Below, piece after piece: positions 38,759 through 64,000 of a stretch of DNA of 64,000 bases; position 1 is the first letter of the stretch, and every line of letters starts with the position of its first letter. The stretch comes from a virus. The notes under the pieces are model-generated. The model had not been told where the DNA came from. It searched no databases and worked only from the letters and a program-made list of their open reading frames with translations. The DNA lies in IMG/VR virus record IMGVR_UViG_3300045988_164340, positions 128,001-192,000 of that record. One strand, given 5' to 3'. The translations under genes and the position numbers were made by a program.

Positions 38759-38901
38759 TCAGACATGAAAGAAAAGCGGATGAATACCAATGAGAATTGT
38801 GAATTCGTCCAATAAAAAATATAGAAAGAGAGGTACAACAATGTATAATTCTTAAGCAAAAAAGCAATGCAAAAGCATAGATGAATACATTAAAGCAACC
38901 G

Positions 38902-39618
38902 ATGGAGATTGTAAAAAATATAGATATAGACCTTAATAAGAGGACAATTTTTTTAGATGTAGATGATGTTTTGTTAGATAGTTCAGTGGCAGTGGTAAAT
39001 ATCTTAAATTAGCGTTATGGTTTAAATAAGACTTTAGATGATTTGGTTGACTGGGGATACAAAAGTATTTATAGAAATTTAACTAAAGAACAAGTTAGTG
39101 AAATTTACGAATCAGAAGAATTTTGGTCATCAGTAAAGCCTAATGAAATATTAATGAAAGCTTTAGAAGATTCCGAAGAAGATGAACAAGGAATTTGGCA
39201 ACAATATAATTGGATATTACTTACCAAAGGCTCAAAAGAATCACTACAGAAGAAACTTGATTATTTAAATAAGATTCCGTTTTTTAAACGTAATGAATCG
39301 AAATGGCGGTATTTTGGATTAGGTCATGGAGAGAAGAAAGAAGATGTTCATATGTTAGGACGGATTCAAATTGATGATAATTATAATTTTCTTAATAGAA
39401 CTGATGCAGATTTAAAGATTCTTGTAAGGAATGGTAAAGAGACAAGATTTAATCGACCTAAAGTTGAGACAGAAAATCTTGAAAATTTATATATTGTAGA
39501 TAATATTTCACAAGTTTTTGAAATTTTAGAATTTATAACAAAATTGGATACTGAAGATATTGACCTTGATGGTTTTGATATTATGGATATGATTACCGAG
39601 GTTAGTCAAATTATTTAA
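38902..39618 (+). CDS. HAD-family 5'(3')-deoxyribonucleotidase-like protein, one in-frame TAG (39010)
   Basis: IFLDVDDVLLDS HAD motif I lies upstream of the TAG and is fused in frame to ORF 39043..39618; start 38902 or 38881. Confidence 0.6.
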
Positions 39619-39643
39619 AATTCCAGCGAAGGAAGGTAACTAA

Positions 39644-42559
39644 GTGCGTTTATTTTACACCGTTAAGCTTAATAGTGCATTAATCAAAGAAAACGGCTAT
39701 AATTTAGACATTAGTTTTCAAGATTGTTTAAAGAGCAATCTAATTGTTTCTTTAGCAGATAGTCAAATGCTAAAGAGTATTCGTGATATAACTGGTTAGA
39801 AGATTGATAGAGTCCAGCTTGAAGAATGGTACTCTGAAAGAGATAAATTAAAAAAAGGAAAAAACAGCAAGAATAATAGGGATAGAATTAAAGAGTTACA
39901 AAGAAAAATCTATAACATGATGTTTATACCACAGTATATTACTGTAAGCATGGAAAATGTCAAATCTTATCGAGACATCTATGAAAATGGTTTTTCTTTT
40001 ACTATTGATTGTGGAGAGCCTATTATTAAAACTGTTAAAAATAAAGATGGTTTAAATGAAGATATAGTTGTTGGTTACGAGAAAGTAACGTATCATTACA
40101 AACGTTTATCTTGTTCAGCATCTCAAGCACGAGTAAGTACAGTAGTTTTTTGTGAAGAAACTATTTTGCCAGAATTAAAGAGAAGGCTTGATAATGGACG
40201 TAATATGGATGATTACAAAATCGCTCCTAGTAAGTATAATGCATATTTTGGTTTATATTCGAGTGCAACAAAAGAAGTTACCAAGCCAAGATTTTGTATA
40301 ATTCCAGATTATTCAGAAGTAAGACCTGTTGATGTTGATTTTGTGATTGAACAACCAGAAGACCAAGATGATATTATCGAAGAAAGAACAGTAGACGTTG
40401 AATTTAATATGGTCGATGGTTCTGGTTTAATTAGTCCTCAAATGGCTGAACAATGGGGAAAAGACCTTGGAGAAGAGTATACTCCTTGTCAATTTTGTAT
40501 TCGCTGTGCTTTCACAAAAGGGGCTGTAAACGAATTTGATTTTGTTGACTGGTGTAAAGAACTCAACAACGAGAATTATTTAATTAAAGATGTTTACGGC
40601 AACTACGTAGATGTAAGAAATATTGATGTTATTCTTACAGAAGGTATGGCAAAACTTTGGAGTGCTTGGGATTCTCAAGAAAGTTTTGAAGAAAATTGTC
40701 AAAAGAATGGTATTATTTGGGGAGTAACCAAATATGCTCCTAAACAAGACAAAGAAGTAAATACAGCAAACTATCAATTTTTGCAAACTTTAAATCTTAC
40801 GCCAGAAATGGTAAAAGATGTTTGTAAACCAACAGTTGATTATATTCAAGGTGTAAGTTACGATAATATTTATTACACTTTATTATTTCTTCTCGGCGAA
40901 AATTTGACTCAAGATAATATTGAAAATTATATGAAATCAAGTGACAATTATTGGTTAAAGTCTCTTGTTTTAAATAATTCTTTGTTATATGATAAATATT
41001 CTAAAGAAAAAGTAAGAGATTTTATTATTAGAAAAATTGAACTTGCTTGTCTTGGAAAAATTATGGTTCATGGTAATTTTCAATGTATTGTAGTTGATGG
41101 GTATGCTTTTATGCAAGCCGCTACAGGTCAAAAAGTAACTGGCTTGTTAAATGCAGGAGAAATGTATTCGCAATTTTGGAATGAGAGAAACGTTACAAAA
41201 GTGGATACTATGCGTAGTCCTCTTACTCATTTTAGCGAGCATTACCCTGTTGAGTTAAAGAATACAGAAGAAATGAAAAAGTGGTACAAGTACAGTTATA
41301 GTGGAGTAATTGTTAATTGTCACGATGCACATACAATGCATTGGGCAGGAAGTGACTATGACTATGACATTATATTTACCTGTGATAATCCAAATTTTAT
41401 TAATGGCGTTTATCCTGACCAAAGAGTAGTAACTTACAACGCTAAAAAGCCTCATAAAAAGCCAGCGAGAGAAATGACTGATTTGGATTTGTATAATACT
41501 GATACATTTAGTTTTGGTACAAGAATTGGTCAAATTACTAATATTTGTTCTACATTTGTTGGTATGTTACCTTTGTTTGAAAAAGGTAGTAAAGAAGAAA
41601 AATTGTTGCAAGACAGAGTTAGGTCATGCTGTGCGGCTCAGTCGAGACAGATAGATAAAACTAAGATTGGTGAAAATGTTAAAGCAGAAGCAACAATTTG
41701 GAAACAATATCAACATATAAATCCAGAAGATTCTCCAGAAGAAATTAAAAGAAAAGAATTTCTTAATTCTCTCTTAGCTGATAAAAAGCCTTATTTTTTC
41801 AGATACAAATATAATACTTTAAGTAAAGAATACAACGAATTTGTTAAGAAAAACGAACAAGATTGTCAGCTTAGATTTGCTTGTTCTTTAAAAGAGTTGT
41901 TGGCTAAAGATGAGAATTTATTAAATGAAAGTCAAAAAGAATTTATTAGATGTTATAAACATTTTCTTCCTGTGGTTGATTCTGATTGTGTGATGAATCA
42001 AATTTGTAAATATATTGAAAATGTTGATTTTCATATTAGAGAAAAAGTCCGCTCTTCTCAAAACTTTGATTATCATACCTTAATGTCTGATGGTTTTGTA
42101 ATTAACAAAAAGATATATGAACAAATTAACGATTTAGTATCAAGTAGAATTAAGGAATGGGCAGCTAAAAGAACAGAAAAAGCTCTTGACGGAGCGTTTA
42201 CAAGCAAAACAGTAAACCCAAGCAAAGTTCTTGACAGAGATTTAGAATATAATATTTTAAGACAAGATTTATTAACTAATATTTGTTCTAATGAAGAACA
42301 ATTAGCAAACCATTTAATATATTTATTTTACGTTGATAAACAGTCTTATAACAAGAACATTCTTTGGGCTTTAGTTGGAAGACAAATATATGAGAATATA
42401 AGAAAAAAGACCTCTGTTTATTATTTTCCTCAAAAGAATCCTAATGGTTCTTTAGAGTTTTTATATGAGAAGTATTCTATTGAGAGAGTACTTGTAAGTC
42501 ACAAAGAGGAAATTGAAGAAGAGGAAAAAGGTATAAAGGAGGAATCTTTTTATGATTGA
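39644..42559 (+). CDS. single-subunit RdRP/YonO-like (two-barrel) RNA polymerase, one in-frame TAG (39797)
   Basis: GTG 39644 after GGAAGG; motifs IRCAFTKGAV, MRSPLTHFSEHYPV and GSDYDYD (41354-41368) parallel the IRxxxxKGxV / NPxxHPGD / DxDGD motifs of cellular RdRPs and YonO. Confidence 0.6.
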
Positions 42560-43616
42560 CATTTATGATGAAGAGGGTTATATTCAAGAAGTTCTTTAGA
42601 ATGGTTTTTCTCAAAAGTGGTAGAGAGATGCTGCTTTACTGGTAAAATATTTTAAGACAGAATATGCACTTGGAAATTAGCCCTCTTGGAATAAAGCATG
42701 GGTTAAAGAAACGATTAAAGAAAAGTGTAAGAAGTATGTACCAACTTATGACCCCAATGTAACCTTTAATAGAGTTAATAAGTTGGTAGATACAACTTGG
42801 AAGAATTGGAAGGTTGACCCTGATAATCCAAAAGAATCATCTTAGCTTAGGAAAATAAAAGAAATAAAAATTCCCGAAGCGGTGCTAAACTGGTTTTTAA
42901 ATCTTGATACATATTATATAACAGACGAAGAAGTAAAAGATATTAAATCAAGGCGTAAGAATGTTAGTGTAAAGAATCATCCAATTACAATGGCACGAGC
43001 TAAATATTTATTTACTTTATATGTATGGACAAAAATTTAGGAAAACTATTTAAGTAGACCTAATATACATTATCTTGAGAAATATAATAAGAAGTTAAGA
43101 AATGATGCTGATTTAAAGCCAAGTTTTTCTCTCACGAAAGAAAGAAACGTATTATTTGATTTAGGATTCATAGATATAAATCATGGACTTGGAGTGACTC
43201 CTATATTTATGGACAAAGAAGATTTCAAAGAAGCGGAGAAAGATGAAAAGGTAATTTTATTGGGTCGGAATGACCTCTATTTGTGCGGAAAATGGCTCGA
43301 AATGAGGAAATTCGGAACTTTTAGATGCCAAAAATGTCGGAAATTATTGCCGCTTCCTGAGAAAAACAAAAAAGGTGGAACACCTAAAAAATATTGTGAC
43401 GAATGTGCAAAACTGGTAAGGAATTGCATAAGTAGTCATTATTTTTGCGAAGTTTGTGGAAAAGAAATAGAACATAATAGTGTAACACAGAGAATCCGCA
43501 AGCGTTGTGCCACTTGTTAGGACCTCTATCGTAAGATGAAAGATAGAGAAAGAAAACAAAATTTGAAAAATTCCGCAAATAAGCCGAAAAACCTCGATGC
43601 TGATTTTGATATATAA
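42552..43616 (+). CDS. hypothetical protein with C-terminal zinc ribbons, six in-frame TAG
   Basis: 1065 nt in frame; ATG overlaps the RNAP stop; CQKC...CDEC...CEVC...CATC. Confidence 0.6.
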
Positions 43617-44708: not shown

Positions 44709-45554
44709 ATGACAAGATTTAGATTGATTAAAGCAATTATGGAGGAAACAGGGTATGATAAAGAAACTGTTTCTAATGTAATTGAATCTTTAGAATATAA
44801 AATTCTTGATACTATTGCAATGGAAGATTAGCTTGATTTTGTGTTTGGTTCTATTTATGGGACTACTAAACCATCTCATAAAATTACAGGATATGTTTCA
44901 ATGCTTCCTGAAATTAGAAAACAAAAAGCTTGGTCTTCTGCATTTTTAGGATATCCAATGATTAAGTTTAGTAGAGAGGCTAAAAACTGTGATAGAGTTT
45001 ATGCAAACGAATTCTTTGCTTGGCCTGAAAATAGATATACTTCGTTAGCTAGGAAGTATAGACAAGATGTTGGAGACCCTGAAATTCCAGAATACGAAGG
45101 TTTATCTGAAGAAAAAATTCAAGAGTTGTGTCAAAAAGCGGATGAAGAGAAAAAAGGTCCTCAATCTCCCCATCAAAAAGCAAGAGAGGCGAGTAACGAA
45201 AGAAAAAGGATTAAACATCAAGAAGCTCGTCATGCTTTAATGAGGCAAATGGACTTAGAAAAACAAAGAGAGAATGGAGTTCCCGAGGAAGATTTGATTG
45301 AGCGACCATTTGAAGATATTTTAGAAGACATGAAAGCTGAATGGTGGCAAACTCACGAAGATTTTCAAAAAAACTGGAAACCATATTTAGCCGACCCTGA
45401 AAAAGTCAAGGAAAGACAGGCTGCTCGTTTGCAACATGCAAAAGAGCACAAAGAATGGATGAAACGACAAGCTGAACTCAAAAATAAAAGAAATGAAGTT
45501 TGGCAAGGAGAAATTAACGATGACGGAATAGCAGTTGAGAAAAACGACGGTTGA
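44709..45554 (+). CDS. HU-like N-terminal domain fused to a charged helical extension, one TAG (44829)
   Basis: MTRFRLIKAIMEETGYDKETVSNVIESLEYKILDTIAMED(TAG)LDFVFGSIYG... continues in frame into ORF 44841..45554. Confidence 0.6.
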
Positions 45555-46293
45555 ATGGTTTTATCGTTGGGTTGGTTTTAGCGTGGCCAATGGTAAACAT
45601 AAATGGATTATTGATATTTATAATAGGATAACTCCCTTACCAGCAAACCATATGATGCTGTATACAGAACCTTGGTGTGCAGCTACCGTTTCTGCTCTTG
45701 GAGAGAGATTAAATTTGACAGAATATATTTATCCTGAATGTAGTTGTAATAGAATGATAGCTCTCTATCAAAAGAATGGAAGATGGGAAGAAAGAGATGG
45801 TTATAAACCTCAAATTGGAGATTTGTGTTTTTACGATTGGCAAGATAACGGAGTTGGAGAATGTACTGGAGAAGCTGACCATGTTGGCATGGTTTGTGAC
45901 GTAAGTGGAAACACCTTTAAAGTTTTAGAAGGAAATTATTCCAATGAAGTTAAGAGTCGCACAATGCAAATTGATGGTAAATATATTAGAGGTTTTGGTT
46001 TACCAAATTATGCTAAAGCTGCAATCGGTTATAAAGCTCCAGTCGATAAAACCAATATTAGAACTATGGCTGGTCAAGTACCCTATTTAAACATAGACAA
46101 TAATAACGAAGCTGTTAAAATGGCTAAGATTCTTTTTAATAGTTTAGGGTTTAATGCTGGGACAGACACAATTTTCGATGAATAGCTGGAAAATGTAGTA
46201 AAACAATACCAAAAGATGTATGGTTTGAGATAGAACGGTGTAATTAACAGAGATGTTTGGTTGTTATTGCTTTAGGGAAAACCTAAGAAATAA
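45520..46293 (+). CDS. endolysin: CHAP amidase/peptidase + PG_binding_1 domain, four in-frame TAG
   Basis: EPWCAATVS, ADHVGMVCD, VLEGNYSNE (CHAP); C-terminal ...VVKQYQKMYGLR(TAG)NGVINRDVW; AAGGAG SD before ATG 45520; TAG at 45529, 46183, 46231, 46273. Confidence 0.75.
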
Positions 46294-46323: not shown

Positions 46324-46527
46324 ATGGCTGGACCTGCTCGCAGAAAGTCTCTTAAAACTCTAATCAAGGAAGTGACAGTTGGATTAGCCAACACTTTCCG
46401 TAATAATATTAATGAAAATAATAAGAATATTGCGGAAACAGTGGATAATTTGCCTGATATCGCTATCAGTAAAGAACAACCAGTTGATTAGAAAGCAGGA
46501 GACTTCTGGTTTCAAATTGTAGATTAA
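46324..46527 (+). CDS. small structural-type protein, one TAG (46489)
   Basis: ends QPVD(TAG)KAGDFWFQIVD, same module as the C-terminus of 60085..60492. Confidence 0.55.
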
Positions 46528-46566: not shown

Positions 46567-48210
46567 ATGGCTAAATTAACAAACAATAGGGCCAAAGCTG
46601 CCATTGCTAAAGAATAGAAAAGATTAGATGCCATTCAAAAGAAAATGGAGACACAAAGGAAAAAAGAGGAATTTGGAGAATCTTGGAAATATTTTTTAAA
46701 AGATGAGCATAAACAGGCTCTAAAAGAAATTGTTGGGGACTTTGGTACACCAAATCTTGTAGATTCTGTTGATTATAATAGTTTTTTTGACCCTATTAAT
46801 TTTTATAAAGAAGAAGATGGAAGTGTAAGATAGCTTGATTACAAGAAATACTTAGAATACGAAGAAGCTTATCAAGAAGTTATTGATGATTGTGATAAAA
46901 TTATAAATGATGAAATAGATACTTCTAACGATTCAGCTAAAGAGCAATTAAGCACCCATCTTACTAAAAAAACAGAAAAGAAAAAGAGTAAGCCTAAAAT
47001 ACCCGAATACTTACAAAAGCTTTATTAGAATTGGACAAAATATTTTAATAGGTTTGTTCCATTGTATGATAAATATGTATGTTCATGTTGTGGAAAAGCA
47101 TTGCCACAAGATAAATATTTCCTTGCATACAACGAAGGGAATTTGGGTAGAATAGAAGCTAATGGAAAAATGCACACACATATTTGTATGGATTGTTGTA
47201 AAAATTTATATGAATATTTGTTTTATGAAAAAGCAGACAAAGATGGCGAAAAAGCAATGAAATGGCTTTGTAGTTATCTTAATATATATTATGACGATGT
47301 TAGTTATTTTAAAGCTAAAAAAACGATGGAGGAGAAAGATAGAAAAACTCATATAGTTGAAGAATATATGAGTGTTATTTCTCGTAGTGCTACTTTAAAA
47401 GGAAAAGTTTTTTTGGAATCGCCCGATGTTGATGTGAATCAAAACAAAGGAGATTCAAAGGCTGATAAAATAATTAACAGCAATACAGGCAATGTGCCTG
47501 AAGATTTAGAAGAAGAATGGAGTAAAGCTGACCTCGAAGCAAAAAGACAAGTTATCAAGATGGTTGGTTACGACCCGTTTTATTTTGAAATTGAAAAAGA
47601 TAGAAAAATTCTTTATAAAGATTTACTTGGTATGATGGAACAGGGTATGGAGCTTGATGGACTTAAAGTCCAAGCTGCTATTTAGATTGTTCTTTCTTTT
47701 AAAAATATTCGTGAATTAAATGAAAAATATAGAAAGAAAAGTGACGAAGATGCTCCTGTTTCAGAATTAAAAGCGTTATCCGAATTAAAGAAAAAAGAAC
47801 TCGAAACAATTACAAGCTTTAGTAGAGATAATGGCTTTGGCGAGCGTTACGCTATCAGTAAAGCCAAAGGTGAAAACACATTTTCTGGTATTATGGCTAA
47901 GATGAATGAGATGAAGTATGAAAATGCTATTCTTAATATGTATGATGTTGAGACTAGCAAGAGTATTAATCAAGCTGCTGATGCAAGTTTTGCAGCTATT
48001 TTCAATCAACTTAGTATGAGTGAAGCGGAAGTGTACAAAACTTGTCAAGATTAGCTTAAAAAATTGCTTTCGTTGCAGAGAGAAAACGCCACCATTACTG
48101 AAAATTTAAGATTGGCTAAACGTGAATTAGCTGAGAAAAAATTGGAAGAAGAAAAACGTCAGTACGACAAAGAAAATGGTGATGATGGCGATAGTTGGGG
48201 TGGTTATTAA
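46567..48210 (+). CDS. 547-aa protein upstream of TerL (possible small-terminase role), five in-frame TAG
   Basis: 1644 nt in frame joining ORFs 46645.. and 47062..; TAG at 46615, 46831, 47026, 47683, 48052; Cys cluster; function assigned by position only. Confidence 0.5.
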
Positions 48211-50261: not shown

Positions 50262-51395
50262 TTAGTGATAAGTGTGTGCATCCCATTGAACTGCTGGGAG
50301 TTCTTAAAGGTTTTTGTACTACAGCATAATTATGAAATAAGAATAAGTGCGAATGTTACGAAAGTAAAAAGAAACAAAAACATGGTGCATGGTTAAATCC
50401 TAAACACTATATAATAGATAATCAGCAGCCAAGTCTTTAACAGAGAAAGGTTCAACGACTATCCCGTGACTGGGAGTAGAGGTTGTTAAAGAATAATAAC
50501 TTCGAAGTGGTGGGACATCTTAATGAGATGATGATATAGTCTAAGCTTATATGAAAATATAAGAAGTAGGTTGTTTTTAAGGGCGACAAGGGAAGGCCAT
50601 CCTTTATACATATCCGCAAAATATGTATATAGCCCTTTATATATTAAAAATACTTTTTGCGGGAGGTTTTTAATGGAAGATGATAGAAAATGGACAGTAT
50701 ATATTCATACTAATAAAGTAAATCAAAAGAAATACGTTGGAATAACTAGTACTTCTGTGATAGAAAGATGGCATCATGGACATGGCTATTTAACCAAAAA
50801 GAAAGATGGAAGTTTTTGTTAGCCAGCTATGGCTTATGCAGTATTAAAATATGGATGGGAATGTTTTTCTCATGAAGTAATAGCTGAAAATTTGACTATG
50901 GAAGAGGCTTCTTAGATGGAAAAAGAATTGATAGAAAAATATTAGTCTAATAACAAACATTTTGGATATAATATTAAAGAGGGTGGAATAGATGGATTGC
51001 CTTCTGAAGAATCAATTCAAAAAGCTTTATAGACAAGACTTAAGAATGGATATCATCATAGTGAAGAAACTAAAAAGAAGATATCTGAAAGTAATATGGG
51101 TAAAACTCATACTGATTCATCTAAAGAATTGTTAAGTAAAAGCCATAGTAAAACAAAACAAAGACCGAAGGAAGTAATTCCACGGAATGATACATATAAT
51201 TAGGTTTATTGCCAATGTGTAGAAACAGGAGAGTGTTTTCCCTCAATTTCTAACGCCGCTGTTAATACTGGCTCTTACAATCCAAATATAGTTAAATGTT
51301 TAAAAGGAACAAGAAAAAGAGCAGGCGGATATCATTGGAAAGAAATAACAAAAGAAGAATATGAAGAATACTGTGCCAACAACTGAAAATACTTG
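50262..51395 (+). mobile_element. group I intron in terL (boundaries approximate)
   Basis: GGTTCAACGACTATCC (about 50449-50464) and ATATAGTCTAAGC (50535-50547) resemble the P7/P7' core; candidate P1 GCACAT(50256-50261)/GTGTGC(50274-50279) with U-G at the splice site; exon frame resumes near 51396. Confidence 0.6.
50673..51386 (+). CDS. intron-encoded GIY-YIG homing endonuclease, five in-frame TAG
   Basis: WTVYIHTNKVNQKKYVGIT...RWHHGH...KYGWECFSHEV...GYNIKEGG; GGGAGG SD. Confidence 0.75.
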
Positions 51396-52430: not shown

Positions 52431-52469
52431 TATTAACGATTAATATAACAAGAAAGGAGGAGTAGGATT

Positions 52470-52853
52470 TTGTTAAAAATAAATAATGGGGTAATTTCAT
52501 TAACTCGTGGCGATGACTGCGTAATAGATTTACAGATTTATACTCCTGATAATTAGGAATACAGTCCAAGAGAAGGAGAAAAAGCAAGGTTTACAGTTAG
52601 AAAGCATCCTTTGTATAATAACGCTACTCCTCCTTTAATCGAAAAAGATTTTGAATTTGTTGAGCTTGAAAGCACTTCTAAGAATGAAAAAGATGAAGAA
52701 AAGACGAAAGTTTGGCGAATTAAAATTAAAGGAACTGATACGAAATTTCTAACATACGGAGGCTATTTGTACGACGTATAGTTTTGTGATATAAAAGGGA
52801 ATATAACCACTGTTTGCAAAGGCAAATTTATATTGACATATGAAATTGGGTAA
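52470..52853 (+). CDS. small beta-rich structural-type protein, two TAG
   Basis: TTG start after AAAGGAGG; ISLTRGDDCVIDLQIY...GGYLYDV(TAG)FCD. Confidence 0.5.
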
Positions 52854-54645: not shown

Positions 54646-54661
54646 GGAAGGAGGATGACTA

Positions 54662-55030
54662 ATGTTTAAATTAGCGTATGTAGACAAGGCAAAAATTGAA
54701 AATAGCATTGCACAGCAAGTCATCCCCGAAGAGAGCTTGATTGTGACCAACAGTGAGGCGAAGAATGCTGAACTGAGCTATTATGATGAAAAAGGTAATT
54801 TGAAGAGCATTGTAAAAAAGACTCAATTTGAGAGTTTTGCTGAAGCTCAATATTGGATTGCTAAATATGGTAACTACGAAGGTGAGACCATATCTGTACT
54901 TGAGAATGGTAAATGGAACACATACACTGTCAATAAAGATGGTGAAATGAACCAGATAGTTTATCAACAGGATATGGTGTCTCTGTTGGATGATTTAATT
55001 ATTGATGGTGGCGGTGCTCCTGAAGCATAA
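54662..55030 (+). CDS. hypothetical protein ending IIDGGGAPEA
   Basis: 122-aa ORF. Confidence 0.55.
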   Translation: MFKLAYVDKAKIENSIAQQVIPEESLIVTNSEAKNAELSYYDEKGNLKSIVKKTQFESFAEAQYWIAKYGNYEGETISVLENGKWNTYTVNKDGEMNQIVYQQDMVSLLDDLIIDGGGAPEA

Positions 55031-55054
55031 TAATTAAGGAAGGGAGGACTACCA

Positions 55055-55555
55055 ATGGCAAAAGTGATTAATACTGTTATTAAGCTTCGTTATGATTAGG
55101 ATTATAACTATCAACGTGTTGGGAATACTTTTATTCCAGCCAAGGGTGAAGTTTGTCTTGTTAATACGAGCAATAGTGGTTTAAGAGCGTTAGTTGGTGA
55201 TGGTCAAAAAACTTATAACCAACTTGATTATGTTGACTATATCTTCTTTAAGGGATACTTTGATGGGAAAGTATTTTGGAAAGAAGAAGAGTTTGTAAAT
55301 GAACTTGAAAAGAATATAAATAAAATTTATATTGCTTTAAATAGTAATAATGACCTTTATATCTACAATGGAGAAAATTATGAAAAGTTGTACAATTTAC
55401 CCTATGCCAATAGTAAAACTGCTGGTGTGGTTAAATTATACGATGAAGTAGGCAATAACACAGATGGCTCCATGACTTAGAGGGCTATTACTGAAGAATT
55501 AGAAAAAAAAGTCGAAACTTCCATTGAGGGAGAGACAATTTTTTTTATTAATTAA
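55055..55555 (+). CDS. fibre-type protein with Mtd_N-like N-terminus, two TAG
   Basis: VIKLRYD(TAG)DYNYQRVGNTFIPAKGEVCLV...GDGQKTYNQLDY; AGVVKLYDEVGNNTDGSMT(TAG)RAIT. Confidence 0.6.
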
Positions 55556-55592
55556 ATATTTTAATTTCGGATTTTACAAGGAGGTTTAAAAT

Positions 55593-57041
55593 ATGGCTGA
55601 TAAATTTCTTTCTATTTTTAATGTTGGTGGCGTAGATTATAATTTGAAGGATGCTGCTGCTACTGCCAAGCTGAATACTTTGCTCGGTGAACAGACTGTT
55701 CAGGAGCTTGGTGCTGCCGCATGGAAGGCAGTCGCCGCTAATATTTCTGGCGAAGGTCTTGTTGATGCTTCCGTTGTTAAGGCTTATGTTGATTCTCATG
55801 TTGGTCAGATTCACAACTTTGATGTTGTAATTGATGCTGATGGCACTGCTGCAAGTGGTCCTTCTGTTACCGCTTCTGCTGATACTATGTATAAGATTTA
55901 TCTTGTTCCTTCTGCTGATGCCGCTGCTGGTGGCTATATTGAATATATTACTATTCGTTCTGGTGCAGAAGGTGCTTATACTTACACTTGGGAAGCTATT
56001 GGTAATACAAAGGTAAGCCTTACTGGTTATGTTCCTACCAGCACTACTATTGCTACTATTAAGCTTGACCACAATATTACTGTTGCTGAACTTCAGACTG
56101 CTCTTGGTTTGAAAGCTTTTGCATATGCCGCAACTGGTACTGCCACTGTCGCTGCTAAGACTGTTTCTGGCGTTAAGGCTACTGGTACTAGCACTGGTTC
56201 TATCTCTGGTGATATTGCATATGCTGAAACAGCTATTACTTCTACTGGTAAAGTAACTGCTACTGGTAGTGTTACTGGTTCTGCTATTTCTGGCGGTTCT
56301 ATTGCTGTTACTCTCAAGGATGCCGAGGCTGCCACTGCTGCTTCTGTTACCGCCGAAGCTTACAAGCCCGCTGGTTCCGTAACTTCCAATTTTGTCGCTG
56401 ATGCTGATAATGGTGTTGCTATTGCGGGTACTATTTCTAAGCCCACGGCTACTGTTACTCCTGCCACTGCTACTGTTCAGGAAATGAAGACCTCTGGTAC
56501 TGAGTATAGTATTACCGAGGGTTCTGTCGCTAAGGCTGCTGATACCAAGAGCGATTTTGCTACCGAAGGCGTTACTGCTTCTGTCGATGAAGCTACCGAG
56601 ACTCTTACTTTTGCGGCTGCTGGTACTTCTAAGGCTGTTACGGCTGCTGGTGATGTGACTTATACTGCTCCTGTTCTTTCTGGCGCTCTGCCCACCTTTG
56701 GTGCTTCTGCTGCTGTTATGACTGGTGTTACTGTTGATGTTTCTCAGCCAACATTCGATGGTAATAAATACGCTGTTAAGAGCTCTTTTGCTGGCACCGA
56801 AGTTGAGGATATGAAGGTTACTGGTGTTACCTATGTCAAGCAGGCCGTCAACACCGCCACCTTTACTCCTGTCGCTGCTACGCTCGGATTCTCTGGAGAT
56901 GAAGTTACTGTTTCTGTTGCTGGTAAGTATGACAAGGCCAATAAGGGTACTCTTGCCTTCGCTGGTGATGATATCGAGCTTGCCGTTGGCGATATTGCTG
57001 TTCCTGAGCAGACCATTACTGTTAATCCTGTTACCGAGTAA
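55593..57041 (+). CDS. Ala/Thr/Gly/Val-rich repetitive structural protein
   Basis: 482 aa; visibly GC-richer with strong GCT/ACT/GGT/GTT codon bias; no TAG. Confidence 0.65.
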   Translation: MADKFLSIFNVGGVDYNLKDAAATAKLNTLLGEQTVQELGAAAWKAVAANISGEGLVDASVVKAYVDSHVGQIHNFDVVIDADGTAASGPSVTASADTMYKIYLVPSADAAAGGYIEYITIRSGAEGAYTYTWEAIGNTKVSLTGYVPTSTTIATIKLDHNITVAELQTALGLKAFAYAATGTATVAAKTVSGVKATGTSTGSISGDIAYAETAITSTGKVTATGSVTGSAISGGSIAVTLKDAEAATAASVTAEAYKPAGSVTSNFVADADNGVAIAGTISKPTATVTPATATVQEMKTSGTEYSITEGSVAKAADTKSDFATEGVTASVDEATETLTFAAAGTSKAVTAAGDVTYTAPVLSGALPTFGASAAVMTGVTVDVSQPTFDGNKYAVKSSFAGTEVEDMKVTGVTYVKQAVNTATFTPVAATLGFSGDEVTVSVAGKYDKANKGTLAFAGDDIELAVGDIAVPEQTITVNPVTE

Positions 57042-57254: not shown

Positions 57255-58313
57255 ATGAAACCAAAGAATAAAATAAGTGAATTTAGGCCAGATTTAAAAG
57301 AATGGTTTGTAAATTAGAACGATTATTATGAATGTGGTATAGCAACCACTAAAAAGGTAAAATTAAAATGTCCTGATTGTGGATATGAATTTGAAGAAAA
57401 GGTTTCCAATTTTACTAAAAGAGTAAAACTTTGTCCAAAATGCAATCTTGATGGTATTTCTCGCCCCAATAAATTTTTAAGAGCTTTTTTAGAGGAAATT
57501 AAAGATTAGCTATTACAAAAAGATTTAGAATGGAATCCTTCATGGGGAGAGAAATATGTATGGGATGGTCATATAATCACGAAAGATAATATTGAAGTTG
57601 TTATAGAAATGCAAGGTGAATAGCATTATCATGAAACTAATTGGGGGAGACATGATTATCAACTAAAGCGTGATTCTGATAAAAGAGAATTATGCAAAAA
57701 AGTAAATATTGAACAAATAGAAATAGATTGTAGTAATACGAAATATTCTTTTATGCAAAAACAAATTTTAAATAGTCGCTTATCAGAAATTTTAGATTTA
57801 ACTAAAATTAATTGGGAAAGTGTATTTATTAATTCTTCTAAAAATTATATAAAAATAGTCGCAGATTATTATAATGATGGTAAAACATCTGGAGAAATTG
57901 GTCAAATTTTAGACATGGATAGGCATACAATTCAAAAAATGTTAATTGATGCTAAAGAAATCGGATGGATTGATTATGAGCCAATTCCTGCTACTGAATT
58001 ATCCAAGAAGGATACTAAGATAATAGATGTTTTAACGGGAGAATCTATAGTTATTCATCGGGTAATAGAAGCTTGTAAATGGTTTAAAGAGAAATATGGA
58101 ATTCCTGTTGATAGACATACAATAAAAGATTATATTCGTGGAGAGCGTATTATTTATTATGGTGGTAAACATACAGAATCTTTAAAGCGGAAATTATATA
58201 AAGACCGTTTCAAATTTGAGTATATAGAAAAAGACAAACAAGTGATAAAGCAAACGATTGATAACTTCCAAATTAATTGTTTGCAGACGTTGGAAGGGTT
58301 TACAAATAATTAA
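57255..58313 (+). CDS. free-standing homing-endonuclease-like protein (zinc ribbon + E..QH nuclease motif + HTH), three TAG
   Basis: 1059 nt in frame; CPDCG...CPKC; VVIEMQGE(TAG)HY; C-terminal GEIGQILDMDRHTIQKML. Confidence 0.5.
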
Positions 58314-59352: not shown

Positions 59353-60066
59353 ATGGCTAATATTAGTAAAATTAAATTACCTGATGTAACCACTCCTTAT
59401 CAATTAGTAGATAGCACAGCTTTACATAGTAGTGATATAGATACTACAGTAACAAGCACTTCTACTGAAAAGGTTGGTTCTGCAAGCGCGGTAAAACAAG
59501 CTTATGATAAGGGTGTAGATGCTTATAATCATGCTAACTCTCTTTTTGAATAGCTTGGTAGTTTCCTTACTTTTAAAGGAACAAAAACAACTGATGCTGA
59601 AATTAAGGCTTTAACTTCCGCAAGGGTTGGAGATGTATGGCTTGAAACCACTGGGCATTCAGAATGGATTTGTATTAAAGACATTAATGGAACTGCTAGT
59701 GCAAGCTCTTGGGAGAAATTGGGCATTGAGATTAGCGCAGCAAGTATCACTCATACTCATAATGTGACAAGTACTACTGGCACCGTAAGTAAAGTTAAGA
59801 CTAATGGTTCTGTAACTGCTGGGACGGCTCCTTCTTTTAAACGAGGAGTAGATAGTTTTAGTGCAAACACTCCAACTATTGTTAGTGTTACGCAAGCAAA
59901 TGGAAATGTAACTATTTCTGTAACAGATGGAACGGCTGCATCTTTTACACAAGGCACGGATACTTTTACTGCTGGTACAACCCCAAGCAATGTTACACTT
60001 CCCACTTTTGATGATGTAACTGTTGTAACAAGTGTAACAGAGGCTACAAGCAGACCTAACGGTTAA
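59353..60066 (+). CDS. tail-fibre-like protein, one TAG (59551)
   Basis: MANISKIKLPD...; GDVWLETTGHSEWICIKD; joins ORFs 59308.. and 59719.. in frame. Confidence 0.6.
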
Positions 60067-60084
60067 GAGAAAGGAGGGAAATAA

Positions 60085-60492
60085 ATGGCAAGTTTTGATT
60101 TTAAAAAGATAACTTTGCCCAATGGCGATGTTGGTACGGTAACAGATATTGCAGCACAAAACGCCGCTGCGGAAGCTGCTGATTTAGCTAACTCTGCAAA
60201 GACAAGTGCTGACTCAGCCAATCAAGCCGCCTCTAGTGCTTAGAGCAGAGCGGACAGTGCGTATAATTTAGCAAATGGTAAGACAACAAATAATATTTCA
60301 ATGAATGGCAGCTCTAATAATAATCCCACTTTTTATGCCCCCACTTCTGCGGGAACGGATGGCTATTTTCTAAAAAGCAATGGTGCTGGAGCTCCAACAT
60401 GGACGGCAATGAGTAGTGGTCCAGACATTGTAGTTAGTAGCTCCCAGCCAACTGGTTAGAAGAGTGGAGATTTTTGGTATCAAATAGTTTGA
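60085..60492 (+). CDS. tail-fibre-like protein, two TAG (60241, 60457)
   Basis: MASFDFKKITLPNGDVGTVTD...; ends QPTG(TAG)KSGDFWYQIV. Confidence 0.55.
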
Positions 60493-60600
60493 TACAAATT
60501 AAAAAGACATTACTATAATTAAATGTAATTCTACTTTCGTTTATTATGGGCGTTTACACGAAATTATATTTATTTATAGAGAAAGGAGTGACAGCTTTTA

Positions 60601-60885
60601 ATGATAGTTAGGAAAGAAAAAGTAGTCTTTACCGCTGGTGGTGAACGTGAATTTCATGTTCCTGCTTCAGTTAGCATGGTTAAACTTGAGGTTAAGTCTG
60701 GAAGTGTGAAAGTTGAAGGGCGATTAACGAAAGAGAGTGACTATGTTTAGATTTCAGGTGTTAAAGCCGATTTAACTAAGTCAGCGGTCGCTCCCTAGGG
60801 AATTACTTCTTTCGAAGTTGCACGGTATTATCAAATACGTTTATCTTATAGCGGTACTGACCCAGTAATTAGCGTAATGTTATAA
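60601..60885 (+). CDS. hypothetical 94-aa protein, two TAG
   Basis: MIVRKEKVVFTAGGEREFHVPASV... Confidence 0.45.
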
Positions 60886-60899
60886 GGGAGGGCTGAATT

Positions 60900-61487
60900 A
60901 TGGCAAATGAAGCTATCTCTAATATTGCTTTACTGTATAGTATGGCAGCGCTATCTGGTGAAGGTGGGTCAGGCGGTGGAAGTGGTGGAACTGTATCCGT
61001 AAAGGTTCATGCTACATATACTATAGAATCCACAGAGGAAGCGCGAGTAGAAAACGTAGGCACAGAAAAAGATGTACAACTTGATTTTTATATTCCTAGG
61101 GGATTAGATGGAAAATCCTCTTAGTGGTACATTTCTGATGGCAAACCTCGGTCTGCCGTTGAAGGAAGTACAGACGGAGATTTAATTTTATATACTACAG
61201 GAGACGTTTATAAAGTAATAAATGGAGTTCCTGTAGACCAGCATCTTAGTTTAAATGTAGGACAAAGTGATGGCCCATACACTTATGCTGTAAAAGCTGG
61301 GTTTAAAGGTAGTGAAGAAAAATTCCAAGAGCTCTGGTTAGCATCGTTAAACAGTGGATATACCAACTCCATACTGGACGGTGGCGTAAGCGATTTCTCT
61401 GAATTTAATGTTCAGAATGATGGCGGTGAAGGAGACAGCAAGACTTATCATCTCAGAGTAGACGGAATAAACGAATTGGACGATTGA
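60900..61487 (+). CDS. fibre-like protein with Gly-rich linker, one TAG (61122)
   Basis: GEGGSGGGSGG; GDLILYTTGDVYKVINGV. Confidence 0.55.
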
Positions 61488-61930
61488 TAAGTGACTGTGT
61501 AATTGTTCTATGAAGGCATGAGGTACAGATAAGTACAGTTTTGAAGTCTGAGAACAATAAGCACGAATCTTTCGACGAACAAGTATTTATGTATTGAGTA
61601 AGAATAGTCGGACATTTTTAACAATTGTTAAGAATTAAAAACGTGATTTTATTTGGTTGTAAACCACAAGATATAGGGGTGTTAATTTTACAACAACACT
61701 ATATATGGTAGTCATTGTGTCCGACAATTTCTTGCTCAAAAATATTTGTATTATTATTTATAAACCTATGAATATAATAGGTTTGTTTGTGTATTTTTAT
61801 ACACGCAAAGCCCATTACACAGGGGCTTTAATATTAATGGGAGACCTCCAATTATGCAAAAAATCTTGCAGAAATAGGGCATGATTGGGGGTAAATAGAT
61901 GCGTTTTCGTTGCAGGAAAACGCCGAAATT
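61488..61930 (+). ncRNA. structured non-coding region in the fibre cluster
   Basis: long-range helix 61595-61614 with 61718-61738 enclosing hairpins 61618-61631 and 61656-61694; further hairpins at about 61502-61558, 61761-61783, 61808-61829 and 61901-61923. Confidence 0.45.
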
Positions 61931-62530
61931 TTGAGTGTCTCTGTATTAAATTCAGGAGGAAGTGCTAATTTACAAACCAAATCCGTTTCCTTAACTTCCA
62001 CCTCTGCTTAGACTTTTTCAAAAGATAGCGCTTACGATGGTATGAGTTCTATTACTGTTACTCCTAATTTGCAAAACAAAAGTGTATCTCCTACAACTTC
62101 TACTCAATATATATATCCATCTTCGGGATATTGTGGCATATATCAAGTTGTTGTATCAGCAATACAATCACAAAGCAATTTGTTGTGTTTAACAGGATAG
62201 CCTTATAGCAATGATGGAATAACATTTAATTTTGATAAAAATTACTCTGATTGGAAACTTTATGTGTTATTTGGACCAAACACTACCAATTTCAACGGAT
62301 GTTTAATGTTTTTTGCTGCTAAAAATATCAACAATAAATACGACCAATGCTCAGTAACTACTAATGGAGAAGGTTTTAACGGTAGTGGTAGCTACTATGC
62401 CACCTCAAATACAGATGGTACTCTTGGTCAATTTTCTTTTAATGGTAGTAACGCAACTTTTTCTTATATGGCTGGTAGTTATGGCTTATATACAGGTTAT
62501 AATTATTATCTTTATATTGTCGTAAATTAA
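61931..62530 (+). CDS. fibre/receptor-binding-like paralog P1, two TAG
   Basis: TTG start; MSVSVLNSGGSANLQTKSV...YDGMSSITVTP; joins ORF 62264.. in frame. Confidence 0.55.
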
Positions 62531-62554
62531 GTTGCCTTAAAATGCCAAATCTAA

Positions 62555-63040
62555 ATGAGTGTTTAGGTTGTTAATTCTGGAGGTTCTGACCCAAAATTGG
62601 GCGCGTTCAGTGTAAAATCAACGAAAACAATAGCAACATAGTTCGCTTCTTCATATAATCTTGATGGTTTTAGTCAAGTAACGGTGAATCCAGTACAAAT
62701 TTATAATGTAATTAACACCGCAACTTATAGCACAGATGCGTGGAATTCTTATAAAGCAACATGCACTCTTCCATCTTAGGTAACTAGAAACTCGATTTGG
62801 CGGATTTTTTGGAGCTTTTTTGGAGCGGTATCTGTTTCTTCCTATTCAACAAACGAAGTTTGTGGTATTTTCATTCCTGATTCAAACATTAATATGTCTG
62901 TTGCGAGTTGGGGAATTATGGGATTTAATTCCATTTATATGGTTAATGGATATACCAATACTTTTACTATAACTGTAGTTAACAATGGTACAATGCAGGT
63001 GGAAAGTGGTAATGGTACCTTTGTTTATGTAATATATTAA
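62555..63040 (+). CDS. fibre/receptor-binding-like paralog P2, three TAG
   Basis: MSV(TAG)VVNSGGSDPK...LDGFSQVTVNP. Confidence 0.55.
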
Positions 63041-63066
63041 CGTTGCGCCCAATTGCCTAAATATGT

Positions 63067-63531
63067 ATGTCTTGCATAGTACATAATTCTTTTACAGGAG
63101 AAACATTAACAACTCCCACATATACTGGCAAATGGAGTTCTTATGATTGGACTTTTGTTTTAGATGATTCACAATTAAACGATTTTATTAATTGTAAAAG
63201 ATTTTTTATGAGATATATATGGTGGAAATCGACTCGGTATCGGGGTGGAATGTATTTGATAATTAATTTTGCCTCATGCACGGGACTATATTATGATTCG
63301 ACTTTTAAAATTTATATGTTTCAAGACGCATCTAGCTATTATCAACATAGCTATCAAGAAAAAAGTGGAAATACAGAATATTATTATGTTGGAACAAACA
63401 ATATAGTTGGAATAAAAGAAAATGTAATTTCTTTTTATCCTTTTTATACTAATGACGCAAAAGCCTTGAAAACGACAACTTTTTTGGGAGAACAGCCTAA
63501 TTAGAGAACGACTTTAGAATTATGGGTTTAA
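63067..63531 (+). CDS. hypothetical protein P3, one TAG near the end
   Basis: 145-aa ORF extended 9 codons through TAG 63502 to TAA 63529. Confidence 0.5.
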
Positions 63532-63554
63532 GTTGTACTTAATTGCCAGTATGA

Positions 63555-64000
63555 TTGTCTATTGAAGTAAAAGGGGCAGGGGGTTCAGCAAATCTTACTG
63601 CTAAAACAATTTCTCCTTCCACCACTTCTCAAACAGTTTATGCGTCAAGTAGTGGCTATGATGGATTTTCTTCTGTAACAGTGAATGCTATTTCTCCTAC
63701 TAAATCTGCTCAAACTTATACTCCAACTACTTATAATCAAACTATATCTTCTGGACAATGGTTATCAGGTACTTAGACCATTAAGGGAGATAGTAATTTA
63801 ATTGCAAGCAACATTAAAAATGGAATAAGCATCTTTGGTGTGTCTGGTAGTTTAGCTGGATACAAACAGTTTCAATTTACAAATGTTACAGCTACTTCCT
63901 CTGGATTAACTATATCTGTAGGAGAAACATTAACCCTTTCTTCTATAGTAGGAATAATGCTTTCTTCAGAGGAATTTGTAAATGCATGGGATACTAATCG
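63555..64000 (+). CDS. fibre/receptor-binding-like paralog P4 (partial, runs off window)
   Basis: TTG start; SIEVKGAGGSANLTAKTIS...YDGFSSVTVNA; TAG at 63774 read through. Confidence 0.55.

What the first reader, a model, noticed from the sequence alone, without database searches (positions are those of the whole stretch)
38881..64000. TAG is a sense codon in the late block and never terminates a called gene
Seen: conserved domains are continuous only across in-frame TAG. Examples are the TerL N-terminus (48294, 48345), the intein (49038, 49443), the TerL ATPase (49668, 49758, 50181), the GIY-YIG enzyme (five TAG), the CHAP/PG-binding endolysin (45529, 46183, 46231, 46273), the HAD nucleotidase (39010), the RNAP (39797) and most fibre genes. 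Every gene I call on either strand ends in TAA or TGA. Two paralogous C-terminal modules keep TAG at the same aligned position: QPVD(TAG)KAGDFWFQIV at 46489 and QPTG(TAG)KSGDFWYQIV at 60457. Established knowledge: TAG-to-Gln recoding is documented in several gut phage lineages and is proposed to delay late-gene translation. The encoded amino acid cannot be fixed from this window. In the micro-ORF families TAG aligns with AAG/AAA (Lys) in paralogs, one step from both CAG and AAG. No suppressor tRNA gene is visible here.
Basis: partly seen in the sequence, partly recalled or inferred. Interest (0 to 1): 0.7.

Follow-up and report, generated by a model that had tools for sequence, protein, structure and literature searches.

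The report
Gut phage reads TAG as glutamine
A ~216-kb SPbeta-like gut phage uses the stop codon TAG as a glutamine codon in its late packaging, lysis and tail genes and in its homing endonucleases, and it carries its own amber-suppressor tRNA, so this is a clear new example of a recoding strategy already documented in gut phages.

Summary
All 15 cited coordinates are in-frame TAG. There are 51 in-frame TAGs in 23 of 29 coding segments between 38.9 and 64 kb. Reading TAG as sense raises the coding fraction from 0.64 to 0.88, against 0.66 and 0.74 for the TGA and TAA controls. No gene ends in TAG.

The amino acid can be fixed from close relatives (75-99% nucleotide identity). Across about 17,800 late codon sites, TAG alternates with CAG 44 times and CAA 30 times (74 of 100 partner observations). 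AAG is not among its partners. TAG is therefore a third glutamine codon, not lysine.

The decoding route exists. The same contig carries a tRNA array 45 kb upstream of the window. Its last gene is a tRNA with anticodon CUA, split between U35 and A36 by a 219-nt group-I-like intron. Close relatives have the uninterrupted gene.

The leftward block (6.4-38.3 kb) is TAG-free apart from one HNH homing endonuclease. The YonO-type late RNA polymerase itself contains one TAG.

This is genetic code 15 as already described for gut phages, so it is a new member of a known kind. The intron-split suppressor tRNA and the SPbeta/YonO context are the less familiar parts. No release-factor gene was found in the roughly 77% of a relative's genome that was read.

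The parts
38881..39618 (+). NT5C-like nucleotidase, the first gene of the TAG-containing rightward block. TAG at 39010.
   Evidence: The Pfam NT5C match over residues 48-124 spans the TAG. TAG position.
39644..42559 (+). YonO-type single-chain RNA polymerase (RdRP-fold). One TAG at 39797, about codon 52.
   Evidence: Pfam PF05183, E 7e-14. 40% identity to Bacillus phage BUCT082 YonO over residues 4-951, an alignment that runs across the TAG. The TAG is invariant in 9 close relatives.
42552..43616 (+). 354-aa protein of unknown function with six in-frame TAGs.
   Evidence: Called as one 353-354 aa gene in all relatives. No Pfam or PHROG match.
44709..45554 (+). 281-aa protein with a weak HU-like N-terminus. 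TAG at 44829.
45520..46293 (+). Endolysin with CHAP and PG_binding_1 domains. TAGs at 45529, 46183, 46231 and 46273.
   Evidence: Pfam CHAP and PG_binding_1. The second domain spans two TAGs.
46324..46527 (+). 67-aa protein ending QPVD(TAG)KAGDFWFQIVD. It shares this module with the protein ending at 60492.
46567..48210 (+). YonG-like protein, 547 aa, with five TAGs.
   Evidence: PF27269 YonG_N on the called product. TAG list.
48210..48431 (+). TerL N-extein, running up to the Walker A lysine. TAGs at 48294 and 48345.
   Evidence: Intein-less relatives read GRNSGK|SFLAAPF. In TerL homologues Q is the commonest residue at both columns.
48432..49565 (+). LAGLIDADG intein, 378 aa, ATSLS...VTHN followed by Ser. 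TAGs at 49038 and 49443.
   Evidence: Pfam LAGLIDADG_3 and Hom_end. Absent from L008, L012 and L013. Boundaries.
49566..50234 (+). Remainder of TerL exon 1 (ATPase). TAGs at 49668, 49758 and 50181.
50235..51395 (+). Group I intron carrying a GIY-YIG/NUMOD3 homing endonuclease ORF (50673-51386) with five TAGs.
   Evidence: Rfam RF00028, 54.9 bits, at 50252-50563. The insert is absent from L007 and L009, where the junction reads CGTGAG|TACAAG. Pfam GIY-YIG.
51396..52430 (+). TerL exon 2 (nuclease half). TAG at 52104.
52449..52853 (+). 134-aa protein with TAGs at 52554 and 52779.
   Evidence: Matches phrog_1084.
53269..57041 (+). Tail-fibre-like genes. The 458-aa (Mtd_N) and 482-aa genes have no TAG here, but relatives carry TAG where the window has CAG (53320, 53404, 54208). 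The 166-aa gene at 55055-55555 has TAGs at 55097 and 55478.
57255..58313 (+). Free-standing homing-endonuclease-like gene (DUF4379, phrog_9084) with three TAGs.
59353..64000 (+). Series of fibre-like paralogues. Each of the eight carries 1-3 in-frame TAGs, including 60457 in QPTG(TAG)KSGDFWYQIV.
32705..34129 (-). HNH/endonuclease VII-like homing endonuclease with five in-frame TAGs. It is the only TAG-containing gene of the leftward block.
   Evidence: Matches phrog_1035 and phrog_3118.
6413..38317 (-). Leftward block, presumed to be expressed before the code switch. Genes include PcfJ-like, DUF932, DUF6551 and GP88 families. It is TAG-free in frame and no gene ends in TAG.

Best explanation
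The window comes from a ~216-kb SPbeta-like phage of human gut Bacillota that uses genetic code 15. TAG is a third glutamine codon and is never a terminator.

TAG codons are confined to two kinds of gene:
- The long rightward late block. It starts with a nucleotidase and a YonO-type RNA polymerase and continues through the endolysin, YonG, TerL and, in relatives, portal, tape measure and tail genes.
- Homing-endonuclease genes, wherever they lie.

The leftward block and the region around the tRNA array avoid TAG completely.

Decoding depends on a phage tRNA with anticodon CUA. It is the last gene of a 15-17-tRNA array, 45 kb upstream of the window and 84 kb upstream of the late block. In this genome the tRNA gene is split inside the anticodon by a 219-nt group-I-like intron, which would have to splice out first.

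The likely sequence of events is as follows:
1. TAG-free genes are translated by the unmodified host machinery.
2. The tRNA array is transcribed and the suppressor is processed and charged with glutamine.
3. Only then can the late polymerase (one TAG) and the late proteins be made full length. The late block uses 49 TAG codons in 7,368 codons here, and one half of the relative's tape measure gene alone has 19.

Shown: TAG is sense, it equals Gln, TAG is not used as a stop, the block-wise distribution holds, and a CUA tRNA gene is present on the same contig.

Inferred: the timing role, splicing of the intron, charging by a host enzyme, and how host RF1 is outcompeted.
For: - ORF statistics and controls.
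- Domains and homologues are continuous across TAG.
- TAG sites are conserved in independent assemblies.
- Codon partners of TAG are CAG 44, CAA 30 and all others 5 or fewer. CAG's partners are CAA 80, TAG 44 and the rest 5 or fewer.
- None of 53 stop sites shows TAG in relatives.
- The window is placed on contig COST17 scaffold_13. L153 from the same contig carries 10 called tRNAs, followed by a split gene after tRNA-Arg(UCU).
- The joined halves fold as a 75-nt cloverleaf with anticodon CUA, nearly identical to the uninterrupted gene of L130.
- The insert matches the group I model at 34.9 bits, E 2e-7, and 35.6 bits in L149.
- A CUA tRNA occupies the same site in every relative examined.
- 29 of 32 genes around the array are TAG-free, and the 14 TAGs there sit in three genes, two of them homing-endonuclease-like.
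- YonO transcribes the SPbeta late operon (PMC5467207), and the late-operon order matches SPbeta-like phages.
Against: - There is no proteomic or RNA evidence.
- The tRNA body does not identify its amino acid. It is 63-70% identical to several isoacceptors, with Gln only among the best.
- The group I match is below Rfam's gathering score of 50, and the related insert in L134 gives no Rfam match.
- No release factor, RF1 inhibitor or aminoacyl-tRNA synthetase was found. However, only about 77% of a relative's genome and about 85 kb of the source contig were read.
- Calling the leftward block 'early' is an inference from its lack of TAG and its orientation. Its genes have unknown functions.
Confidence: 0.9

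Rival explanations
1. TAG is a sense codon but encodes another amino acid. Candidates are lysine (as hinted by paralogue alignments), glutamate, tyrosine, tryptophan, serine, leucine or pyrrolysine.
For: - ARAGORN labels the CUA tRNA 'Pyl'.
- At some TerL columns, homologues carry E, K, S, T or G where the window has TAG.
- One allele in relatives (L134, L136) has a long variable region like class II tRNAs.
- The tRNA body similarity is not decisive.
Against: - 74 of 100 codon-partner observations are CAG or CAA. CAA is two mutational steps from TAG.
- AAG is not among TAG's partners. GAG and TGG each appear twice and TAT once.
- The tRNA is a standard cloverleaf, with GG in the D loop and TTCGA in the T loop. 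From my own knowledge, tRNA-Pyl has a compact, atypical shape instead.
- No pyl genes were seen.
Confidence: 0.03
2. TAG remains mainly a stop codon and is read through only at low efficiency, so most products are truncated on purpose.
For: No release-factor gene or RF1 inhibitor was found. Suppressor tRNAs normally compete with RF1.
Against: - Essential single-copy proteins carry many TAGs: six in mature TerL and 19 plus 12 in the relative's tape measure. Low per-codon efficiency would leave essentially no full-length product.
- TAG supplies 19% of glutamine codons in the late block.
- TAG is never used at gene ends.
Confidence: 0.04
3. The interrupted ORFs are pseudogenes, separate small genes or assembly errors.
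For: Under code 11 the block looks fragmented.
Against: - Only TAG interrupts. The TGA and TAA controls do not restore long ORFs.
- Domains and homologues continue across the TAGs.
- The same TAGs recur in assemblies from many samples.
- A neighbouring protein of this phage group is seen on at least 1,000 contigs.
Confidence: 0.01
4. The host itself reads TAG as glutamine, so there is no switch of code during infection.
For: The host was not identified. The only genome hit is a metagenome bin labelled 'uncultured Clostridium sp.'.
Against: - The phage carries its own CUA tRNA.
- It keeps TAG out of 8,451 leftward-block codons and out of 29 of 32 genes around the tRNA array. That would be pointless in a host that decodes TAG.
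- Cultured relatives infect standard-code Bacillus, Clostridium and Enterocloster.
Confidence: 0.02

Closest known systems
Alternatively coded (code 15, TAG to Gln) gut phages: crAss-like, Lak, and the Jade, Sapphire, Garnet and Topaz clades of Borges et al. (bioRxiv 10.1101/2021.08.26.457843). Proteomic proof in crAss-like phages: PMC9523058.
   Same: - In-frame TAG is concentrated in structural and lysis genes.
- TAG-free genes are presumed to be expressed first.
- The phage encodes its own CUA tRNA.
- Intron-borne endonucleases are recoded.
- Genome size (~216 kb) and a Bacillota host resemble what that paper says of its large Jade and Sapphire clades.
   Different: Membership of a named clade could not be tested because no reference sequences were to hand. 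Here the recoded block is a SPbeta-type late operon headed by a YonO polymerase that itself carries a TAG. The suppressor tRNA gene is split by an intron in this genome.
phAss-1 / proposed Phassvirus, 136-kb TAG-recoded phages of Clostridia (PMC10607447).
   Same: A human gut phage, probably of Clostridia, with TAG read as Gln in TerL, portal and tail genes, phage CUA tRNAs, and no dedicated synthetase.
   Different: Genome size differs (136 kb against ~216 kb). phAss-1 has three suppressor tRNA genes where this phage has one. No sequence comparison was made here.
SPbeta-like phages with YonO-driven late transcription (PMC5467207).
   Same: The window has a YonO homologue: 40% identity to BUCT082 and 22-23% to SPbeta-group YonO. 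The gene order YonO, HU, YonG, TerL(YonF), portal(YonE) is the same.
   Different: The cultured relatives use the standard code and have genomes of 90-186 kb. This phage is larger, recoded, and loaded with inteins, introns and homing endonucleases.
Theta (HDV-like) ribozymes next to phage suppressor tRNAs (PMC10879173).
   Same: A ribozyme is physically coupled to maturation of a phage suppressor tRNA in recoded gut phages.
   Different: There the ribozyme is a small self-cleaving element at the tRNA's 3' trailer. Here it is a group-I-like intron inside the anticodon, present in only some genomes of the group.
Bacterial group I introns in tRNA anticodon loops (review PMC3984707; Azoarcus pre-tRNA-Ile, PMC13168695). 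The cyanobacterial tRNA-Leu(UAA) example is from my own knowledge.
   Same: The intron sits in the anticodon loop. The exon ends in U, which can pair with G in P1, and the intron ends in G. The exons rejoin into a normal cloverleaf.
   Different: The host gene is an amber suppressor in a phage. The Rfam score is below the family threshold, and splicing has not been tested.

Membership tests
Genetic code 15 (TAG = Gln) phage | In-frame TAG inside conserved genes, with long ORFs restored only by reading TAG as sense | tested here: met
Genetic code 15 (TAG = Gln) phage | TAG is not used as a terminator | tested here: met
   No credible gene ends in TAG. None of 53 stop sites shows TAG in relatives.
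Genetic code 15 (TAG = Gln) phage | TAG corresponds to glutamine in orthologues | tested here: met
   TAG partners are CAG 44 and CAA 30, which is 74 of 100 observations. Q is the commonest residue at 3 of 6 TerL columns. Those homologues may themselves be code-15 translations.
Genetic code 15 (TAG = Gln) phage | Phage-encoded tRNA with anticodon CUA | tested here: met
   Same contig, L153 8480-8773, split by a 219-nt insert. Intact in relatives.
Genetic code 15 (TAG = Gln) phage | The suppressor tRNA has glutamine identity | tested here: inconclusive
   It has a U1/U72 mismatch and G73, and its body is 63-70% identical to several isoacceptors. No isotype-specific models were available.
Genetic code 15 (TAG = Gln) phage | Recoding concentrated in late structural and lysis genes while other blocks avoid the codon | tested here: met
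Genetic code 15 (TAG = Gln) phage | Peptides with Gln at TAG positions | not testable with these tools
   Needs metaproteomics of the source sample.
Sapphire or Jade clade of Borges et al. | TerL groups with the clade representatives | not testable with these tools
   Reference genomes such as SRR1747018_scaffold_13 are not in the accessible collections. Only size and host phylum agree.
SPbeta-like phages | YonO-type RNA polymerase and the syntenic late operon (HU, YonG, YonF/TerL, YonE/portal) | tested here: met
SPbeta-like phages | Nucleotide or high protein similarity to genus Spbetavirus | tested here: not met
   The best cultured match is 40% protein identity. There is no DNA similarity apart from the intron core.
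Pyrrolysine decoding of TAG | Atypical tRNA-Pyl architecture and pyl genes | tested here: not met
   The tRNA is a standard cloverleaf. The codon partners are glutamine codons. A systematic search for pyl genes was not made.
Group I intron in a tRNA anticodon loop | Match to the group I covariance model at the curated threshold | tested here: not met
   34.9 and 35.6 bits against a gathering score of 50, E 2e-7 and 6e-7. No match for the L134 variant.
Group I intron in a tRNA anticodon loop | Removing the insert precisely restores a functional-looking tRNA, with U before the 5' splice site and G at the intron's end | tested here: met
   Intron-less alleles exist in relatives.
Group I intron in a tRNA anticodon loop | Self-splicing activity | not testable with these tools
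   Needs an in vitro splicing assay or RNA-seq.

The most novel reading that the evidence does not exclude
In this phage lineage the switch of genetic code may be gated by RNA catalysis and wired into transcription. The only CUA tRNA gene of the source genome is split inside its anticodon by a group-I-like intron, which some close relatives carry and others lack. No TAG could then be read until the intron splices out. The YonO-type polymerase presumed to transcribe the late operon itself contains a TAG, which would give a lock running from suppressor tRNA to polymerase to late genes. On this reading, the intron and the striking diversity of suppressor alleles among genomes that are otherwise about 85-99% identical at the protein level in this region would be part of the control, or of an arms race over it, rather than neutral passengers.
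Probability: 0.2. Interest if true: 0.7.

Novelty: new member of a known kind. Interest (0 to 1): 0.4.

Why it matters
Standard gene callers break the late half of this genome into fragments. Recognising code 15 is needed to annotate a phage group that is very common in human gut data: one neighbouring protein is seen on at least 1,000 contigs.

The locus also provides a compact system for an open question, namely what triggers the code switch. Three features make it useful:
- a single suppressor tRNA that exists in intron-containing and intron-less alleles among close relatives;
- a late RNA polymerase with one TAG;
- late genes with dozens of TAGs.

The recoded homing endonucleases and intein show that mobile elements living in such genomes have adopted the phage's code.

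Tried and rejected
- Rfam at gathering thresholds found nothing in the window. The TerL intron appeared only with the permissive search of a short stretch.
- tblastn against cultured standard-code SPbeta-like phages (BUCT082, PMBT24, c-st) gave too few and too distant alignments to say what aligns with TAG.
- Residues in 120 TerL homologues favour Q. I did not rely on them, because many of those proteins may themselves be code-15 translations.
- Similarity of the tRNA body to the phage's other tRNAs does not identify the isotype.
- A chimeric query in the search for homologous proteins did not return the expected identical proteins and cost one search. The source contig was reached instead through the listing of cluster members, by picking the cluster member whose longest contig is 216,183 bp.
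- A search of about 2.9 Mb of related loci and of the later loci for the release-factor GGQ motif found nothing.
- The insert in the L134/L136 tRNA allele has no Rfam match, although it shares conserved blocks with the L153 intron.
- The exact 5' splice site of the TerL intron is unresolved. Intron-less alleles place the junction after G (CGTGAG|TACAAG), but the Rfam P1 helix starts 17 nt further on.
- Pyrrolysine, lysine, pseudogenes and assembly error were considered and rejected, as set out under the rival explanations.

Full report
WHAT THE WINDOW IS

The 458-aa protein at 53269-54645 is encoded on ENA contig COST17-1_SAMEA4545300_METAG-scaffold_13 (216,183 bp). Window position w corresponds to contig position w + 141,721. 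Other window proteins recur on many contigs of 204-221 kb from other human-gut samples and in IMG/VR. A protein from the same phage group is on record on at least 1,000 contigs.

The window has three blocks:
- + strand genes at 1-6.3 kb;
- a minus-strand block at 6.4-38.3 kb;
- a + strand block from 38.8 kb to the end.

The + strand block starts with an NT5C-like nucleotidase and a 971-codon ORF that matches the RdRP-fold family. That ORF is 40% identical to the YonO polymerase of Bacillus phage BUCT082. The following genes are an HU-like protein, a CHAP/PG_binding_1 endolysin, a YonG-like protein and TerL. This is the order of the late operon in SPbeta-like phages. In SPbeta, YonO transcribes that operon (PMC5467207).

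CHECK OF THE OBSERVATION

Every cited coordinate is an in-frame TAG. The ORF statistics for 38.8-64 kb are as follows:

| Reading | Coding fraction | Median ORF |
|---|---|---|
| Code 11 | 63.5% | 115 aa |
| TAG as sense | 87.7% | 195 aa |
| TGA as sense (control) | 66.3% | 127 aa |
| TAA as sense (control) | 74.2% | 108 aa |

Under code 11, 20 of 39 ORFs of at least 70 aa stop at TAG. I count 51 in-frame TAGs in 23 of 29 coding segments.

Pfam matches for NT5C, PG_binding_1 and GIY-YIG run across TAG codons. TerL, joined from its pieces, matches the large-terminase family over residues 32-591 and has 259 homologues.

The minus-strand block is the opposite case. It has 8,451 codons and six in-frame TAGs. 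Five lie in one HNH endonuclease gene (32705-34129) and the sixth lies upstream of a start codon.

No credible gene on either strand ends in TAG. At 53 stop sites that can be compared with relatives, TAA and TGA are seen but never TAG, although TAA to TAG is a single transition.

The TAGs are not assembly errors. Of 160 sites where the window or a relative carries TAG, 82 are invariant across independent assemblies.

CORRECTIONS TO THE ANATOMY

TerL is interrupted twice.
- A 378-aa LAGLIDADG intein (48432-49565) sits in the Walker A motif. It is absent from three relatives, which read GRNSGK|SFLAAPF.
- A 1,161-nt insert (50235-51395) contains a group I intron core (RF00028, 54.9 bits) and the GIY-YIG gene. 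It is absent from two relatives, where the protein reads NPYKAERE|YKNRFD.

It follows that the ORF ending at 50396 does not end at a gene stop, and that the GIY-YIG enzyme is an intron-borne homing endonuclease. Other relatives carry other inserts in TerL. In a relative, portal and tape measure are also split by endonuclease ORFs.

WHICH AMINO ACID

Cultured standard-code relatives are too distant to help. Database homologues may already be code-15 translations.

I therefore compared orthologous codons between the window, a walked relative and several dozen related loci at 75-99% nucleotide identity, over about 17,800 late-block codon sites. The results were:
- TAG shares sites with CAG 44 times and CAA 30 times.
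- Its other partners are AAA 5, GAA 4, TCG 3, GAG 2 and TGG 2, with everything else at 1.
- AAG is not among TAG's partners.
- CAG's own partners are CAA 80 and TAG 44, with nothing else above 5.

CAA differs from TAG at two positions, so mutational proximity cannot explain this pattern. TAG behaves as a synonymous glutamine codon. In the late block it supplies 49 of 257 glutamine codons, alongside CAG 51 and CAA 157. The leftward block uses CAG 127 and CAA 95.

THE DECODING ROUTE

The window has no tRNA. I walked along an IMG/VR relative (IMGVR_UViG_3300045988_167732, 220,795 bp) using queries made of the proteins at both frontiers.
- About 46 kb upstream of the window's equivalent lies an array of 15-17 tRNA genes.
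- Its last member has anticodon CUA and directly abuts tRNA-Arg(UCU).
- A cluster look-up of a neighbouring protein led back to the source contig itself: L153 is scaffold_13 positions 87,938-108,303.

On the source contig ARAGORN calls ten tRNAs but no CUA tRNA. Immediately after tRNA-Arg(UCU) lies the following:
- the 5' half, TGAGGAATCGGCTAACGGTCAAGTCAGGGGTCTCT;
- a 219-nt insert that matches the group I model at 34.9 bits (E 2e-7, below the curated cut-off of 50);
- the 3' half, AAAATCC...CCTCTGCCA.

Joined, the halves form a 75-nt cloverleaf with anticodon CUA. It is nearly identical to the uninterrupted gene of relative L130. The insert lies between U35 and A36. The exon ends in U, which can pair with G in the predicted P1, and the insert ends in G.

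One relative (L149) has the same split gene. Two others (L134, L136) have a different CUA tRNA allele, split two bases earlier by a homologous 219-nt insert. That insert has no Rfam match. The rest have intact genes of two sequence types.

The tRNA's amino-acid identity cannot be read from its sequence.

Genes around the array are TAG-free except for three genes, two of them homing-endonuclease-like.

OTHER FACTORS AND HOST

No class I release-factor motif was found in any related locus. Those loci cover about 77% of the relative's genome. No synthetase was noticed. About 130 kb of the source contig remains unread.

The only hit among species-representative genomes is a 123-kb contig in a metagenome bin labelled uncultured Clostridium sp.. 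Together with the CHAP endolysin and the hosts of the cultured relatives, this points to Bacillota.

HOW IT MOST LIKELY WORKS

1. TAG-free genes are translated by the host's standard machinery.
2. The tRNA array is expressed, the suppressor precursor is spliced, processed and charged with glutamine.
3. From then on TAG is read. This allows synthesis of the YonO-type polymerase (one conserved TAG), the late proteins, and the homing endonucleases and intein.

The distribution of TAG, its meaning, and the presence of the tRNA gene are shown. The order of events, the splicing, the charging enzyme and the competition with RF1 are inferred.

COMPARISON WITH WHAT IS KNOWN

TAG-to-Gln recoding of late genes with phage suppressor tRNAs is documented in several groups:
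- crAss-like and Lak phages and several gut phage clades, including large-genome clades said to infect Bacillota (Jade, Sapphire) (bioRxiv 10.1101/2021.08.26.457843);
- 136-kb Clostridia phages (PMC10607447);
- crAss-like phages by proteomics (PMC9523058).

The Borges et al. preprint also reports a recoded intron endonuclease. Ribozymes next to phage suppressor tRNAs are known in the form of HDV-like theta ribozymes (PMC10879173).

My literature searches found no description of a suppressor tRNA split by a group I intron, and none of code 15 in a YonO/SPbeta-type phage. The library is incomplete, however.

VERDICT

- The amino acid is resolved as glutamine.
- The missing tRNA has been located on the same contig.

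The phenomenon is a new member of a known kind, and interest is moderate (0.4). The intron-split suppressor and the TAG in the late polymerase are the leads most worth following.

Noticed in passing
window 48210-52430: TerL is a mosaic. A 378-aa LAGLIDADG intein sits in the Walker A motif, and a 1,161-nt group I intron carries a GIY-YIG endonuclease. Both are present in some close relatives and absent from others. Relatives also carry other inserts, namely NUMOD3 and DUF723/DUF4379 ORFs, at other TerL sites.
   Followed up: yes
window 50235-50260 and 51380-51395: The 5' boundary of the TerL intron inferred from intron-less alleles follows a G (CGTGAG|CAAATC...), not the usual U. The Rfam P1 helix begins 17 nt further in. 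The true splice site is unresolved.
   Followed up: partly
L153 8480-8773 (source contig 96,417-96,710, 45 kb upstream of the window): The only CUA tRNA gene found on the source contig is split between U35 and A36 by a 219-nt group-I-like intron. Relatives have intact genes of two sequence types, or a third allele split two bases earlier. The suppressor is far more variable than the surrounding genome.
   Followed up: partly
L153 2584-2705 and 8170-8302; L138 782-854, L139 1738-1810, L157 10444-10516: Other members of the tRNA array look unusual. Two tRNA matches carry inserts of roughly 50-60 nt. ARAGORN calls one tRNA next to tRNA-Thr with a four-base anticodon (ggta) in several relatives, and as tRNA-Pro(ggg) in others.
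   Followed up: no
L153 3223-3327: A sub-threshold match to the YrlA Y-RNA-like family (42.4 bits, cut-off 69) lies inside the tRNA array.
   Followed up: no
L153 8903-9358 and 10001-10366: The 151-aa protein just downstream of the suppressor tRNA is 100% identical in 10 of 12 relatives and is on record on at least 1,000 contigs. Two genes further on is a protein with the Acb2/Tad1 hairpin domain, a family of anti-defence sponges.
   Followed up: no
window 32705-34129 (-) and 57255-58313 (+): Free-standing homing-endonuclease-like genes carry five and three TAGs. One of them lies in the otherwise TAG-free leftward block. Endonuclease ORFs in the tRNA array also carry TAG, 10 in one GIY-YIG gene.
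   Followed up: partly
L020 17039-20384; L142 13443-20682 and L170 10527-15899: In the walked relative, the portal gene and the tape measure gene are each interrupted by an endonuclease ORF. The two tape measure pieces contain 19 and 12 TAGs.
   Followed up: no
window 6000-32000 and 55548-57143: Long ORFs lie on the antisense strand opposite real genes, for example 531 codons opposite the 482-aa fibre-like gene. This is probably a by-product of codon composition. G+C is 35-39% at 6-32 kb but 27-31% at 32-40 kb.
   Followed up: no
L002 1-385, L021 9050-10396 (about 10 kb upstream of the window's start in relatives): A TnpB/IS605 OrfB (Cas12f-like) gene is present in several relatives of this phage.
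   Followed up: no
window 14787-16445 and 21788-24115 (-): There are two large paralogous PcfJ-like proteins, plus DUF932, DUF6551 and GP88 family proteins. These families are mostly of unknown function, so the role of the leftward block is unknown.
   Followed up: partly
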